64,000 nt of DNA from a virus, in the IMG/VR virus record IMGVR_UViG_3300020447_000001, positions 52,383 through 116,382 of that record; one strand, given 5' to 3'. The notes beneath the pieces were generated by a model, which was not told where the DNA came from, searched no databases, and was given only the letters and a program-made list of their open reading frames with translations. This document shows positions 16,830-21,416 of this stretch, in pieces. The position numbers and the translations under genes are program-made. Numbering within the stretch: the stretch's first letter is position 1; each line of letters begins with the position of its first letter.

Positions 16830-17060
16830 ATGGGTAGACCCATTTGCGTCAACTGTAAACAAGAGTATCAATGTAAGAAGAATGAGCAGGTCGTTAACGA
16901 CAAAGCGGCAGGAGTATTCCCCGCTACGTTTTGGATGGGAGATTTATGGGAATGCACTAACTGTAGTCATCAAATTGTCACAGGACGTGGTAAAAGCCTG
17001 GGGTTAACACCCTTTGAAGTGGAAAGCCTAGGAGGCTCTATTGAATTTGGACATTGTTAA
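16830..17060 (+). CDS. small Zn-ribbon protein
   Basis: CVNC...WECTNC. Confidence 0.6.
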   Translation: MGRPICVNCKQEYQCKKNEQVVNDKAAGVFPATFWMGDLWECTNCSHQIVTGRGKSLGLTPFEVESLGGSIEFGHC

Positions 17061-17081
17061 AACAAAAAAGGAGCTTAAATC

Positions 17082-17348
17082 ATGAGTCACGATCCAACTG
17101 AAACTATTCGTAGAAGTGAAGTTAATAGAATTAATACAGCAGTAGAAAGTTCAGACGAGGATGCTGAACGCGCAAGACTTGAAGCAGAATACGGACAAGT
17201 ATGGGATACGAAACAACTTCAAGAAGATTTTGCGGTAACTAGCTTTGGAGCCCCATACGTGGTTGTAACACGTAAAACAGATAGTGTTGTTGGTTCACTG
17301 GAATTTCAACACAGTCCACGTTATTATTTTAACTTCACGGAAAATTAG
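17082..17348 (+). CDS. hypothetical phage protein
   Basis: AGGAG RBS; 88 aa. Confidence 0.65.
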   Translation: MSHDPTETIRRSEVNRINTAVESSDEDAERARLEAEYGQVWDTKQLQEDFAVTSFGAPYVVVTRKTDSVVGSLEFQHSPRYYFNFTEN

Positions 17349-17378
17349 ATAAAGTAACCATATAGAAAGGATTCGAAA

Positions 17379-17741
17379 ATGGTACAGCGATTTGGGCCTA
17401 GTAAACGCAGGACACGGAAACCACCGGAAAACGAATGGCTCCAGTTTATGTCGACGAGTGAAAAAGAGACTCTAAGGCAAAAAGAATGGTTAGATACATC
17501 TCTAGCGGATACTGGTTTACCGGTTCGTGTGGTAAATTGCCTGGAGGAGGCCGGAATTCTTACTGTGGAGGACTTGACGAAACAAACCGCAGATGCGTTA
17601 CTACGTATTACCAATTTTGGCGAGCAAACATTGGGACAATGTACTCGCCTGCTGGCAAAACTTAATCTTCCGCATTGCTTGCAGGAAGAGGCACATGAAG
17701 ACCCCGGTAGGTGTATTAACCTTAAGTCTCCTTCCAGGTGA
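17379..17741 (+). CDS. stand-alone RNA polymerase alpha subunit C-terminal domain protein
   Basis: LADTGLPVRVVNCLEEAGILTVEDL...LLRITNFGEQTL matches the alpha-CTD HhH consensus. Confidence 0.85.
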   Translation: MVQRFGPSKRRTRKPPENEWLQFMSTSEKETLRQKEWLDTSLADTGLPVRVVNCLEEAGILTVEDLTKQTADALLRITNFGEQTLGQCTRLLAKLNLPHCLQEEAHEDPGRCINLKSPSR

Positions 17742-17753
17742 CCTACCGGGGTC
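17700..17753. other. 13-bp perfect stem-loop overlapping the end of the alpha-CTD gene
   Basis: GACCCCGGTAGGT-N28-ACCTACCGGGGTC. Confidence 0.65.
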
Positions 17754-17779
17754 GCTTTAAATCAATTCAATTACTTCGT

Positions 17780-17809
17780 AGCCTGGAGTCGATACTCCGG
17801 GCTTTTTTT
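17780..17809 (+). terminator. terminator-like hairpin upstream of the RAMP gene
   Basis: AGCCTGGAGT-cgat-ACTCCGGGCT followed by a T run. Confidence 0.7.
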
Positions 17810-17829
17810 ATGCGCAAAGGAAAAACAAC

Positions 17830-18654
17830 ATGGCTACAATTACTAAAGCAAAAATAGCAAAGAACGGAAAAGTATCGACAGCAAAGAAGGCAACTTCACA
17901 GAGAAAGGATCCTTTTGAAAAGACGCGTATTGTAATACCGGCAATGAAGAAGGCGATCTACAGGGCTACCCTATATGGAAAAACGGATCTGATCGTACAT
18001 GCTTTAGGCACGAAGGCAAAAAAGAAGTTGTTGGACTCAATGGGGCCGAAGAACGCTGCGTCGAAAGTGCGACCTGCTAAAGATCCCGCCGCTGAGTATT
18101 TTGACAGCATGTACATCCTTAACAACAAGTACGACTTTGTGACTGGAGAATACTCCAATCCTCACATGAAAGATCAGCCGTACACGGGCGACATCGACGC
18201 AGATTATGAGACTATTATGCGTCCCATCCGGTACGAAGATTGCACGGCTATTCACGGGGTAGCTTGCGCGGGTATCCGAAAGGGCATGGTTCGTGCGGCA
18301 AAGTCGTGCGGGGCCGTTATGACAGATACCAACTGTAATATACGGGTAGAAAGTCCTTATGGGAACGAGCTTGCCATTAAATTTGAAACTCTTGTTTCTG
18401 GGGAAGTCCCGGTTAAAGTCGGTAAAAACCAAACGGACTTGCGATATCGTCCTCACTATTCAAACTGGAGCATAGATATTGCGATTACTCACCAGTCTGA
18501 GATTATCGGGCCGGAAGAATTGACACAACTCCTTCGAAATGCCGGGGAATTTGTCGGCCTGTCAGAATGGAGAAACGAGAAGGGCGGTCAATACGGCGCG
18601 TACGAAGTAGACCTCAACAGTATTCAATACGAGCTAACTAAAGACAACAAGTAG
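17830..18654 (+). CDS. stand-alone RAMP/Cas7-like protein (candidate Vipr-type effector)
   Basis: N-terminal strand ATLYGKTDLIVH, GIRKGMVRAA helix, DLRYRP.Y..W, C-terminal Gly-rich loop LLRNAGEFVGLSEWRNEKGGQYGAYEV; no other cas genes nearby. Confidence 0.7.
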   Translation: MATITKAKIAKNGKVSTAKKATSQRKDPFEKTRIVIPAMKKAIYRATLYGKTDLIVHALGTKAKKKLLDSMGPKNAASKVRPAKDPAAEYFDSMYILNNKYDFVTGEYSNPHMKDQPYTGDIDADYETIMRPIRYEDCTAIHGVACAGIRKGMVRAAKSCGAVMTDTNCNIRVESPYGNELAIKFETLVSGEVPVKVGKNQTDLRYRPHYSNWSIDIAITHQSEIIGPEELTQLLRNAGEFVGLSEWRNEKGGQYGAYEVDLNSIQYELTKDNK

Positions 18655-18673
18655 ATAATTCTGTTTTCGTTAT

Positions 18674-18705
18674 AAGCCCCTAGCCTCCGGGCTAGGGGCT
18701 TTTTT
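18674..18705 (+). terminator. terminator-like hairpin between the RAMP gene and its partner gene
   Basis: AAGCCCCTAGCC-tccg-GGCTAGGGGCTT followed by a T run. Confidence 0.75.
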
Positions 18706-18718
18706 AAAAGGAGAACTC

Positions 18719-19243
18719 ATGGAAGCTGCAATTAATTTTGAGTATCAAGCGAAGAAGGGTCGTCCGTTATCAGATGCGGTAGCCGAATTGGTGGGTCCTG
18801 AAATTCGATCGCTTAGCCAAGAGACAGGGGAGGAAGTCACCCCTGTCGAGTATTTAAACTGGGTAGCTACTCATCCACATAGTGAAAGTCACGCTTTGTT
18901 TGAGTGGGACGACACAGAAGCAGCGAAGAAATATCGTCTGCACCAAGCACGAAACATTATCAACTCGATTGAGATTAAGATAATTGATCATCGTGGAGAT
19001 GAAACTTTTGTCCCTGCTTGGCTAAACATAAAGGTACAAAACGACGAAGAGGAATCTCCTCGTCAAGTCTACACTTCGTTTGAAAGTGTCGTAAATGATA
19101 ATGAAAAAAGTCAAATAGTGGTGGCACAAGCGAGAAAAGAGTTTATTTCCTGGCGACGACGTTATTTGTTGTTTAGGAATGAGTTACCTCTAGCCGCTAT
19201 TTTTGAGGCTACTGATGAGCTTGAGCTAGAAGAAGAAGGTTGA
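18719..19243 (+). CDS. uncharacterised helical protein abutting the GGY-NN array
   Basis: AGGAG RBS; FEWDDTEAAKKYRLHQARNII motif; stop codon 13 nt before the array. Confidence 0.7.
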   Translation: MEAAINFEYQAKKGRPLSDAVAELVGPEIRSLSQETGEEVTPVEYLNWVATHPHSESHALFEWDDTEAAKKYRLHQARNIINSIEIKIIDHRGDETFVPAWLNIKVQNDEEESPRQVYTSFESVVNDNEKSQIVVAQARKEFISWRRRYLLFRNELPLAAIFEATDELELEEEG

Positions 19244-19256
19244 CACCTTAAAACAA

Positions 19257-20058
19257 GGCGAGGTACGGCTAGGCTAGGTACGTCATGTTCAGGTGGGGCG
19301 AGGCAGTCGTGGCTGGTTCGGGCGAGGCAGAGGCGTGGACTGGATGGGCAGTCGGGGCGAGGTCGGGCAAGGCAGCGTGGGGTCTGGTAGGGCAGGGCAG
19401 TCATGTCACGGACGGGCGAGGCAAGTCCGGGGCGGGCAAGGCCTGGCAGTCAAGTCAGGGTTTGGTCTGGAACGGCTAGGCTAGGCTGGGTCGGGCGTGG
19501 TTTGGCAGTCAGGGCGAGGCGAGGTCCGGTTTGGTGCGGAATGGTGGGATATGTAATGGCTGGTCGTGGCTGGTTCTGGCAGTCGGGGCTTGGTGGGGTA
19601 CGGTAAGGTTTGGTTGGGTATGGTCTGACTTGGCAGTCTCGGCGAGGTCGGGCTAGGCTAGGCTAGGCTGGGTCGGGCATGGTGAGGCAGTCATGGCAAG
19701 TTCAGACTTGGCTAGGTAGGGCGGGCTCGGGCACGGCAGTCACGGCTAGTTCGGGAGTGACAAGGCGGGTTCAGGTCAGGTACGGCAAGGCAGTCAAGGC
19801 GGGGAAAGGCTGGGCTAGGCTGGGTGGGGTCTGGACAGGCAGTCACGGTGAGGTCTGTTGCGGTGAGTCGGGTACTGGTAAGGACGGGTTCGGCAGGCAT
19901 GGTCGGGCAGCGTAGCTCATGGCGAGGCCAGGCGAGGCCAGGCACGGCAGTCAAGGCGATGTGGGGTGTGGCTTGGCTAGGTAGGGCTTGGACAGTCGAG
20001 GCAGTCTAGTCATGACAAGGCTAGGTGTGGCGGGGTGCAGGTAAGGCAGTCACGTCCA
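19257..20058 (+). ncRNA. GGY-NN pentamer array punctuated by GGCAGTC (candidate guide-RNA array)
   Basis: About 130 pentamers, mostly GG(C/T)NN; 14 perfect GGCAGTC delimiters, mostly spaced 9+5n nt; ends at a terminator. Confidence 0.75.
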
Positions 20059-20064
20059 GCTATG

Positions 20065-20104
20065 AACACCGCAAGTGCTACCATGCGCTTGCGGTGTTTT
20101 TTTT
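20065..20104 (+). terminator. intrinsic terminator closing the array
   Basis: AACACCGCAAGTGC-taccat-GCGCTTGCGGTGTT followed by a T run. Confidence 0.85.
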
Positions 20105-20109
20105 CTCTG

Positions 20110-20400
20110 GTACAAACCCTGGTACTTTTTTAGGGGGGACAAAAAGGGAGTCATATATTAGCCGATTAGACCGCAACTGCGCCGCAGCTAATTACCGGGG
20201 TTTGTACTAGCGCCGCAGCTAGGACGCAGCTGAGGACGCACTTGGGACGCACTTGTAATGCACTTGGAACGCACACTCCAGTGCACATTTTCTGCATATT
20301 TTCTGCACATTTTCTGCATACTGGAGTGCACATTTTCTGCACAATGGGCTGAGGACGCACTTGGGACGCACACTGGAGTGCACATTTTCTGCACAATGGG
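20110..20400. repeat. non-coding nested direct/inverted repeat tract (iteron/ori-like)
   Basis: (C/T)ATTTTCTGCA x5, multiple GGACGCAC copies, 28-bp and 24-bp direct repeats, 15-bp inverted repeat at 20110-20124/20193-20207. Confidence 0.75.
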
Positions 20401-20417
20401 GGGTAAAAAACTAAAGT

Positions 20418-21416
20418 TTTACCTCCTACAATAACTTAACGCGTCCCTTATACTACGTATAAGAAAGGCGAGCATGATTAAACGAATTCCACTGGGGCTG
20501 CAAGACATACTGACCCGAATCGAAGATCCGTCGGACGCATTCACATTTAGTCGTTGGGGTGATGGCGAATGGCAAGCGATTGCAGGGGCGAGAAGCCGTA
20601 GTAATCGAGACGGGCACAGGTATTTCCCAGAAATGGGCAAAGAACTACGCCAAATCTTGCTGGAACAGCCAGATTACGTTATGGGCATGCAGGGATTAGC
20701 CCTGCGGGTCATGGGAGACAAAATTAACACGCAAGTTAAAGCCGCAGGCCTAGATTACGTCGATTGGGTAGATTCGGATGTATTTCACCAAGCTGCTTTA
20801 AACGGACATCTCTATTGCGTTGTAAACGCAGTAAATACACGAAAGGTGTTGCTGGTTGGTCCACCCCATCTAAGGAAGGTCAATACAAATACAAATTTAC
20901 CCCTACATTATTGGGAATTTGTAGAGGTCTCGCCAAAGAATGCTTATCTGGATATAGAGCGCGTAATAGGGGATATAGAGCAAATTTTAGCAGAATACAA
21001 AGGAAAAGAGCCTTTGTGTATCTCAGTAAGTGCCAGCTTACCTGCGGGTATTATTCTTCACAGAATATACCCATTAACCAAGGGGCGACACACTGTAATA
21101 GACTTCGGATGTTTGTGGGATCCGTTAGCTGGTGTAATTACAGCGGGATATCACAAGGAGCAAGGTATTAAAGCTATTGTGGAAGCTAGAAGTACAGAAC
21201 CTTACATCACGGAAGTAAGTGAAGAACAGTAACACCTATTTACTATAGTAACATAGCATATGTTACTGTGCAATAAGAAGGTAATTTACTACGTAAATCC
21301 ATATGGAATTGGCGAAGATTAACAGATAAGTAATTTACTTAAGATACAGGGAGAAAAAAGACTCCCTGTTCTTATACGTAGTATAAGGGACGCGTTAAGT
21401 TATTGTAGGAGGTAAA
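20418..21416. mobile_element. 999-bp cassette with perfect 48-bp terminal inverted repeats, no transposase
   Basis: 20418-20465 is the exact reverse complement of 21369-21416; GT dinucleotide on both flanks. Confidence 0.6.
20474..21232 (+). CDS. GT-D fold (DUF1792-like) glycosyltransferase-related protein
   Basis: FTFSRWGDGEW and IDFGCLWD motifs. Confidence 0.65.
   Translation: MIKRIPLGLQDILTRIEDPSDAFTFSRWGDGEWQAIAGARSRSNRDGHRYFPEMGKELRQILLEQPDYVMGMQGLALRVMGDKINTQVKAAGLDYVDWVDSDVFHQAALNGHLYCVVNAVNTRKVLLVGPPHLRKVNTNTNLPLHYWEFVEVSPKNAYLDIERVIGDIEQILAEYKGKEPLCISVSASLPAGIILHRIYPLTKGRHTVIDFGCLWDPLAGVITAGYHKEQGIKAIVEARSTEPYITEVSEEQ

What the first reader, a model, noticed from the sequence alone, without database searches (positions are those of the whole stretch)
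19257..20058. Encoded pentamer array: GGY-NN units delimited by GGCAGTC
Seen: the region parses into about 130 in-register pentamers, mostly GG(C/T)NN. Positions 1-3 are near-constant and positions 4-5 vary freely. Fourteen perfect GGCAGTC delimiters start at 19302, 19347, 19396, 19445, 19504, 19578, 19632, 19686, 19735, 19789, 19838, 19946, 20000 and 20045. Spacings are 45, 49, 49, 59, 74, 54, 54, 49, 54, 49, 108, 54, 45. All but the two 45s (one-nt slips) fit 9+5n, and 108 splits 54+54 at a variant GGCAGGC (19892). Each unit therefore carries a different 8-10-dinucleotide message, e.g. 19454-19503 AG TT CT AC TA TA TG CG GT TT; 19587-19631 TT GG AC AA TT TG AT CT TT; 19641-19685 GA CG TA TA TA TG CG AT GA. 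A strong terminator follows at once. Inference: this is not a satellite but a multi-guide ncRNA cut at the delimiters, with GGY bound by protein and the NN pairs reading a target non-contiguously. It matches my recollection of recently reported phage 'VIPR' GGY/NN guide arrays, which I cannot verify here.
Basis: partly seen in the sequence, partly recalled or inferred. Interest (0 to 1): 0.95.

Follow-up and report, generated by a model that had tools for sequence, protein, structure and literature searches.

The report
Phage VIPR staggered guide-RNA array
The G-rich five-base rhythm is the guide-RNA array of a VIPR system (a CRISPR-related, phage-borne RNA-guided DNA silencer first described in 2026 preprints) in a 116-kb marine phage: a real, well-supported new example of a known kind, whose targets I could not find.

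Summary
There are 14 exact GGCAGTC at the stated positions, against 6 in the other 232 kb of both strands. GGYNNGGY occurs 70 times, against 5 in shuffles, and unit lengths follow 5n-1. The 274-aa gene just upstream (17830-18654) is a Vipr homologue. It matches the solved SUSP1 Vipr (PDB 36pp, E 2e-6) and keeps the residues that grip GGY. A winged-helix-like accessory gene (18719-19243) lies between it and the array, and a strong terminator closes the array.

Twenty-six related loci, with Vipr 22-90% identical, carry the same punctuation, always on the vipr strand. Across units GGY is fixed (1.6/1.1/0.6 bits) and NN is free (0.04 bits). One guide shared by diverged relatives keeps every NN while nine changes fall in GGY. 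NN usage mimics sense codon positions 1-2 (r 0.76), as the published one-base-skip rule predicts.

The architecture fits the 'staggered' arrays of that paper (fig. S18 legend), not the tailed SUSP1 type. Expression, cutting at the delimiter and targets remain unshown: eight exact gapped scans gave nothing above chance. This scan has met the same kind in other genomes. Verdict: new member of a known kind.

The parts
17379..17741 (+). 120-aa RNA-polymerase alpha C-terminal-domain-like gene, a clade-specific companion of the locus
   Evidence: Pfam PF03118, E 1.1e-13, 51 bits against a cut-off of 23.8. Found directly upstream of vipr in all 10 marine-clade loci that hold that flank (L001-L009, L011), and not detected in the diverse loci.
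17780..17810 (+). Terminator-like hairpin between the alpha-CTD-like gene and vipr
   Evidence: 10-bp stem plus a T run. It suggests that vipr-vap-array is a transcription unit of its own.
17830..18654 (+). vipr: stand-alone RAMP (Cas7-like) protein, 274 aa
   Evidence: phmmer against PDB hits only 36pp_D 'SUSP1 Vipr protein', E 2.1e-6. BLASTP against SUSP1 YP_009199429 gives E 2e-12. R207, E246, W247 and R248 align with SUSP1 R138, D177, W178 and R179, the GGY contacts (paper), and are invariant in 13 homologues. tblastn hits 125 phage records, including SUSP1-like phages. The top 50 Foldseek rows of a weak model are all CRISPR RAMP subunits.
18719..19243 (+). vap: accessory gene, winged-helix-like domain plus a C-terminal helical hairpin, 174 aa
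   Evidence: phrog_15946, E 6e-15. AlphaFold pLDDT 89. VIA-align Z 5-7 to PadR, MecI/BlaI, Fur and forkhead winged helices over residues 18-126. Homologues lie next to vipr in marine and diverse loci.
19253..19301 (+). First guide unit, starting 10 nt after the vap stop codon, with no delimiter in front of it
   Evidence: Ten pentamers. Its NN string is conserved in L002, L003 and L007, where it is headed by GGCAGTC.
19302..20051 (+). Fourteen GGCAGTC-headed units (15 counting the split at 19892), 7-14 pentamers each
   Evidence: 10 of 13 spacings are 4 mod 5. The exceptions are two units with a 1-nt insertion and one double unit.
19892..19898 (+). Degenerate delimiter GGCAGGC
   Evidence: It splits the 108-nt interval into 54+54.
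20064..20108 (+). Intrinsic terminator closing the array
   Evidence: 15-bp stem with 8 G-C pairs, then a T run. Conserved after the arrays of L002 and L003.

Best explanation
This is the vrRNA array of a phage-encoded VIPR system. Shown here:
- A Vipr (stand-alone RAMP) gene, a winged-helix-like vap gene and a roughly 16-unit array lie on one strand and end in a terminator.
- The grammar is [GGCA][GTC-NN][GGY-NN]n, so each unit is 5n-1 nt long.
- GGY is fixed and NN is free.
- The module is conserved across phages whose Vipr is only 22-30% identical.

Inferred from the published mechanism (SUSP1, type II): the array is transcribed with vap. One Vipr protomer binds each 5-nt repeat. Thumb and G-loop residues, conserved here, hold the GGY bases, and the NN pairs are presented to double-stranded DNA that matches NN-x-NN-x. 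The outcome is silencing of genes of rival mobile elements.

Inferred from the anatomy: the 7-nt punctuation shortens one repeat to 4 nt and replaces the next GG by GT. That breaks the protein filament's register, so it marks where one guide ends and the next begins, with or without RNA cleavage. This corresponds to the 'staggered, 1-nt overlapping' arrays named in the discovery paper.

The NN usage indicates that the guides are sense-strand copies of codon positions 1-2, so the targets are protein-coding genes with the skipped base at the wobble position.
For: - Vipr homology and conserved GGY-contact residues (paper).
- RAMP-only Foldseek hits.
- Array statistics.
- Family logo over 66 unique units: GGY 1.63/1.09/0.60 bits, NN 0.04/0.04 bits.
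- 133 of 174 delimiter spacings in 20 loci are 4 mod 5. The GG phase shifts by 9, not 10, across the delimiter in both marine and diverse sets.
- All 26 other loci holding both a Vipr homologue and such an array have them on the same strand, 23 with the array downstream.
- The guide shared by L002 and L007 differs at 9 positions, all within GGY and none in NN.
- Only 3 of W's units have counterparts in relatives whose vipr is 92% identical in DNA, so content turns over fast.
- NN usage correlates r 0.76 (bootstrap 0.58-0.82) with sense codon positions 1-2 of the phage's ORFs. Every other phase and strand gives 0.18 or less. The 52 guides from diverse loci give the same r.
- No self-target above shuffles, as the paper reports for its systems.
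- The record is a virus with DNA polymerase, helicases and a UvsX-like recombinase.
Against: - No transcript or processing data could be obtained.
- No target was found above chance, so the one-base-skip rule is not directly verified for this clade.
- Similarity to the solved Vipr covers only the C-terminal 70 residues at 33% identity, and the AlphaFold model of Vipr is poor, pLDDT 53.
- About a third of the pentamers in this array are not strict GGY.
- There is no ~40-nt structured tail like that of the characterised type II vrRNAs, so how the guide ends are made is unknown.
Confidence: 0.9

Rival explanations
1. Same system, but the array is not cut into units. It acts as one long RNA on which the -1 slip at each GGCAGTC only interrupts and re-phases the Vipr filament, giving a string of guide segments on one molecule.
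For: The punctuation is only 7 nt and has no flanking structure, ribozyme or Cas6-like gene. The locus has just vipr and a winged-helix vap. The discovery paper confirmed ribozyme-type and single-guide arrays by sRNA-seq, but not the staggered type.
Against: The fig. S18 legend speaks of 'individual processed vrRNAs'. An invariant 7-mer across Vipr proteins 22-90% identical is more than a mere frame break would need, and fits a sequence-specific cut or cap.
Confidence: 0.2
2. A DNA-level or structural repeat with no guide function, such as a G-rich satellite, a G-quadruplex tract or a recombination or packaging signal.
For: (GG N3)n can form two-tier G-quadruplexes. The RNA folds better than shuffles, z -4.6 with only 20 shuffles.
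Against: Strict linkage and co-orientation with vipr in 26 of 26 other loci. A terminator sits at the 3' end. NN is conserved while GGY drifts in a shared unit. NN shows a codon-phase signature. A satellite would homogenise NN.
Confidence: 0.03
3. A translated glycine-rich repeat protein (GGY codons).
For: Short ORFs of 41-80 aa overlap the array.
Against: A period of 5 is not a multiple of 3, and every unit shifts the frame by -1. ORFs are short and lie in all frames and on both strands. Unit number and order differ among close relatives.
Confidence: 0.01

Closest known systems
VIPR systems with 'staggered' vrRNA arrays (bioRxiv 10.64898/2026.04.26.720920, text and fig. S18 legend)
   Same: A Vipr gene plus an accessory gene plus back-to-back GGY/NN guides with no long tail. 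[quoted passage not shown]
   Different: I could read only the legend. The GGCAGTC motif appears in none of the four VIPR papers' texts. The paper did not confirm this architecture by sRNA-seq. Its type number for this clade could not be determined, because no supplements are held. This clade adds an alpha-CTD-like gene upstream.
Type II VIPR of Escherichia phage SUSP1 (Vipr, Vap1, four vrRNAs; PDB 36pp)
   Same: Homologous Vipr with the same GGY-contact residues. GGY/NN repeats, 9-16 per guide there and 7-14 here. Phage-borne, with a two-gene core.
   Different: SUSP1 Vipr is 195-202 aa and this one is 274 aa. Each SUSP1 vrRNA has its own leader and a ~40-nt pseudoknot tail, and there is no GGCAGTC. 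Vap1 shows no sequence similarity to this vap, E 6.5. SUSP1 has 4 guides and this array about 16.
Class 1 CRISPR-Cas (Cas7 backbone on crRNA, arrays processed by Cas6)
   Same: RAMP fold with thumb and G-loop. A protein filament on a guide, with periodic unpaired positions. An array of different guides between constant punctuation. Fast turnover of guide content.
   Different: No 25-40-nt repeats, no cas1/cas2, no Cas6, and a period of 5 rather than 6. The specificity is interleaved inside the repeat rather than held in a contiguous spacer.

Membership tests
VIPR | A Vipr protein (stand-alone RAMP homologue) encoded next to the array | tested here: met
   PDB 36pp SUSP1 Vipr, E 2.1e-6. Pairwise E 2e-12. 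125 phage records, including SUSP1. RAMP-only Foldseek rows.
VIPR | Residues that hold GGY (SUSP1 R138 thumb; D177, W178, R179 G-loop) | tested here: met
   They align with R207, E246 (conservative change), W247 and R248, which are invariant in 13 homologues. The H17 equivalent lies outside the alignable part.
VIPR | Tandem 5-nt repeats, GGY conserved and NN hypervariable, at least 4 per guide | tested here: met
   Information content 1.63/1.09/0.60 bits against 0.04/0.04 bits. 7-14 repeats per unit. 70 GGYNNGGY against 5 in shuffles.
VIPR | Accessory vap gene predicted to bind DNA | tested here: met
   Winged-helix-like, Z 5-7, a moderate match. Co-located with vipr in distant loci.
VIPR | Mostly viral or proviral location | tested here: met
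   G000 is a 116-kb virus record with phage replication genes. Relatives are marine viral contigs.
VIPR | vrRNAs expressed and bound by Vipr | not testable with these tools
VIPR | Targets that match NN-x-NN (one-base skip), skip at the wobble position, no self-targets | tested here: inconclusive
   No self-target above shuffles. Eight exact scans gave 0 hits or chance-level hits. Indirect support comes from NN usage matching sense codon positions 1-2, r 0.76.
VIPR, staggered-array architecture | Adjacent guides abut with a 1-nt overlap and no tail | tested here: met
   Spacing is 5n-1 in 133 of 174 units from 20 loci, and the GG phase shifts by 9 across the delimiter. The published figure itself could not be seen.
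VIPR type II (SUSP1-like) | Each vrRNA ends in an invariable ~40-nt structured tail; vap1 | tested here: not met
   Only a 7-nt punctuation lies between units. The SUSP1 tail and leader are absent. vap is unrelated to vap1.
CRISPR array | Direct repeats of about 23-50 nt alternating with spacers; cas1/cas2 nearby | tested here: not met
   TRF finds only periods of 5, 10 and 26. No cas genes among the neighbours.

The most novel reading that the evidence does not exclude
The invariant GGCAGTC is a minimal guide boundary: in the YNNGG register, a 4-nt CAGT linker replaces the ~40-nt tail of the characterised vrRNAs. It is read by Vipr itself or by the winged-helix Vap as a cut or cap site. It also serves as a recombination handle that lets whole guides be shuffled, duplicated and swapped between phages. 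The same unit sits first in W, internally in L002 and twice in L007. The strong sense-strand, codon-phase bias would then mean that this clade is aimed at the template strand of conserved protein motifs in rival phages.
Probability: 0.3. Interest if true: 0.55.

Novelty: new member of a known kind. Interest (0 to 1): 0.4.

Why it matters
VIPR is months old and has been characterised almost only in one coliphage type. This locus documents the tail-less 'staggered' architecture in a 116-kb marine phage and in at least 26 other viral contigs with locus G+C of 46-71%. It supplies the exact grammar (GGCA, GTC-NN, then GGY-NN repeats; units of 5n-1 nt). It also supplies three sequence-only tests that do not need a known target: NN conservation while GGY drifts, NN usage that mimics sense codon positions 1-2, and fast turnover of units. 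These give experimenters a defined set of about 16 natural guides and a conserved 7-mer to mutate when asking how guide ends are made without a tail, ribozyme or Cas6. The locus does not open a new category.

Tried and rejected
1. Target search under the published rule (each GGY replaced by one N, both strands).
- Three full guides gave 0 exact hits in IMG/VR, and one gave 0 in 596 Gb of GTDB genomes.
- An 8-dinucleotide core of the conserved first guide gave 30 hits, mostly with in-frame stops. The best was L155:4214, matching 19 of 20 NN in sense frame inside a 436-aa ORF of unidentified function. Given about 13 distinct hits this is not significant, and no other guide maps there.
- The 19396 guide family gave 4 hits. 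Two are homologous 'internal virion protein' genes (phrog_511) of ~60-kb podophages, where the L002/L003 variant spells a moderately conserved motif exactly, with differing wobble bases. However, the number of hits equals chance expectation, no other guide maps on these two genomes, and W's own variant mismatches the family's invariant Trp codon. Its exact hit, L166, is antisense and out of phase. I rate this a lead only.
- The 19578 guide gave 2 chance hits.

2. All 68-127 guides against the phage's own genome and 1.2 Mb of fetched viral loci, at skip 0-3, were no better than shuffles.

4. Rfam: nothing relevant in 17000-21000, only sub-threshold chance rows.

5. Sigma-70 promoter scan: no site in front of vipr or the array, and fewer sites than in shuffles.

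6. Vap against PDB by sequence gave no hit, and Foldseek gave no hit at E 0.001 or better.

7. VIPR type number: no supplements are held.

8. A genome-contig scan for Vipr relatives found none.

Full report
OBSERVATION. Window 19257-20058 is 46% G. It has a sharp 5-nt periodicity: G autocorrelation is 1.54, 1.46, 1.37 and 1.37 times expectation at lags 5, 10, 15 and 20. GGYNNGGY occurs 70 times, against a mean of 5.0 and a maximum of 16 in 500 shuffles. The rest of the 116-kb genome has only 6 copies on both strands, which is about the composition expectation, and no second pentamer cluster. Parsed from each delimiter, the grammar is GGCA, then GTC-NN, then GGY-NN repeats. Unit length is therefore 5n-1. 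The two 45-nt units each carry a one-base insertion. The 108-nt interval is two 54-nt units separated by GGCAGGC. A first unit without a leading delimiter starts 10 nt after the upstream stop codon, so there are about 16 units of 7-14 pentamers. A 15-bp-stem terminator follows at 20064-20099.

WHAT IT IS. VIPR is a published system. The discovery paper describes a stand-alone RAMP protein (Vipr), an accessory gene (vap), and vrRNAs of 9-16 YNNGG repeats whose NN pairs read double-stranded DNA with one skipped base per repeat. A cryo-EM paper shows one protomer per repeat, with thumb R138 and G-loop D177, W178 and R179 holding the GGY bases.

The 274-aa ORF at 17830-18654, on the array strand, has a single hit in PDB sequence space: the SUSP1 Vipr protein (36pp, E 2.1e-6). 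In that alignment R207, E246, W247 and R248 stand opposite R138, D177, W178 and R179. All four are invariant in 13 homologues. tblastn finds SUSP1-like coliphages and Gordonia phages. The AlphaFold model is poor (pLDDT 53), yet its top 50 Foldseek rows are all CRISPR RAMP subunits.

The 174-aa ORF at 18719-19243 is phrog_15946. It folds confidently (pLDDT 89) into a winged-helix-like domain, with VIA Z 5-7 to PadR, MecI, Fur and forkhead proteins, followed by a helical hairpin. This matches the paper's statement that several vap families are predicted DNA binders. It shows no sequence similarity to SUSP1 vap1.

COMPARATIVE EVIDENCE. Marine metagenome and IMG/VR relatives with Vipr 55-90% identical carry arrays with the same 7-mer, 11-23 copies each, and the same 5n-1 rule. 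A scan of IMG/VR for three spaced GGCAGTC returned 119 loci. At least 21 of them encode a Vipr homologue only 22-33% identical to this one, most with a vap homologue, in loci with G+C of 46-71%. In all 26 other loci that hold both features, the array lies on the vipr strand: 23 downstream and 3 upstream. Over 20 loci, 133 of 174 spacings are 4 mod 5. The GG phase jumps by 9 rather than 10 across the delimiter in both the marine and the diverse sets.

Over 66 unique units, GGY carries 1.63, 1.09 and 0.60 bits and NN carries 0.04 and 0.04 bits. Within one guide shared by L002 and L007, all 9 differences fall in GGY positions and none in NN, so the NN string is the part under selection. Only 3 of this array's units have counterparts in relatives whose vipr DNA is 92% identical. 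Guide content therefore turns over much faster than the genes. The same unit occupies different ranks in different arrays, which fits shuffling at the identical delimiters.

A TARGET-FREE TEST OF THE CODE. The paper reports that skipped bases fall on wobble positions. If so, NN pairs should look like codon positions 1-2. They do. Usage of the 16 dinucleotides among 592 NN pairs correlates r 0.76 (bootstrap 0.58-0.82) with sense positions 1-2 of this phage's ORFs. The other phases give 0.18 and 0.08, and the reverse complement gives -0.24. The 52 guides from the diverse loci give the same 0.76. This is indirect, but it favours coding targets, a wobble skip and a sense-strand bias.

TARGETS. No self-target exceeds shuffles, as in the paper. 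All eight exact gapped scans available to me returned nothing above chance. The most suggestive result concerns the L002/L003 variant of the 19396 guide. It spells a motif of a podophage internal virion protein (phrog_511) in two diverged contigs whose wobble bases differ. The hit count equals expectation, however, and no second guide maps to those genomes. This window's own variant mismatches the family's invariant Trp codon. I report it as a lead only. A 9-10-repeat guide carries too little information for a single hit in about 10^11 bases to be significant. Convergence of several guides on one element is needed.

MECHANISM. The gene-array module, its grammar, its conservation and the selective pattern are shown here. 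Protein binding of GGY, presentation of NN and silencing of rival elements are inferred from the published mechanism. That the 7-mer is a guide boundary is inferred from the anatomy, because it makes one repeat 4 nt long and replaces the next GG by GT, which must break a one-protomer-per-5-nt filament. Whether the RNA is actually cut there is open. The paper's legend speaks of processed, 1-nt overlapping vrRNAs, but the paper states that only the ribozyme and single-guide architectures were confirmed by sRNA-seq. No ribozyme, Rfam family or Cas6-like gene is present.

COMPARISON AND VERDICT. The locus meets every VIPR criterion I could test. It fails the type II criterion of a ~40-nt tail and fits the 'staggered' architecture. 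The motif GGCAGTC is not mentioned in the text of any of the four VIPR papers held. Earlier follow-ups in this scan describe the same punctuated arrays in other phage genomes, so this is not a first sighting there either. It is a new member of a known kind, with some added descriptive value.

Noticed in passing
window 17379-17741: A free-standing RNA-polymerase alpha C-terminal-domain-like protein (PF03118, E 1e-13). It lies directly upstream of vipr in all 10 marine-clade loci that hold that flank, and is separated from vipr by a terminator-like hairpin. It was not detected in the diverse VIPR loci. It may be an extra accessory factor for a system that silences transcription.
   Followed up: partly
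window 34202-34735: A 177-aa ORF inside the replication gene block shares a G-loop-like stretch with Vipr (pairwise E 8e-6, 14 of 35 identical; PWK in place of EWR). It has no PHROG hit and no convincing PDB hit.
   Followed up: partly
window 20214-20343: Nested 11-nt and 22-nt tandem repeats directly after the array terminator (TRF). They look like iterons. Their function was not examined.
   Followed up: no
L001:8908-9092: The 78-kb IMG/VR relative has a second mini-array of four GGCAGTC sites (three full units). It lies about 0.5 kb of non-repeat sequence beyond the end of its main array.
   Followed up: no
L165:3970-3995, L167:975-1000 (IMG/VR contigs; whole records G001, G002): The L002/L003 variant of the 19396 guide matches all 18 NN positions, in sense frame, at the same motif of two diverged phrog_511 'internal virion protein' genes whose wobble bases differ. 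It is a plausible target class (~60-kb podophages) but statistically at chance level.
   Followed up: yes
L155:4214-4242: The first guide of this array matches 19 of 20 NN positions in sense frame, near the N-terminus of a 436-aa ORF of unidentified function. No other guide maps there. Chance is not excluded.
   Followed up: partly
window 19250-20062: The array RNA folds more stably than dinucleotide shuffles (z -4.6, 20 shuffles). The repeat (GG N3)n could also form two-tier G-quadruplexes when not covered by protein.
   Followed up: no
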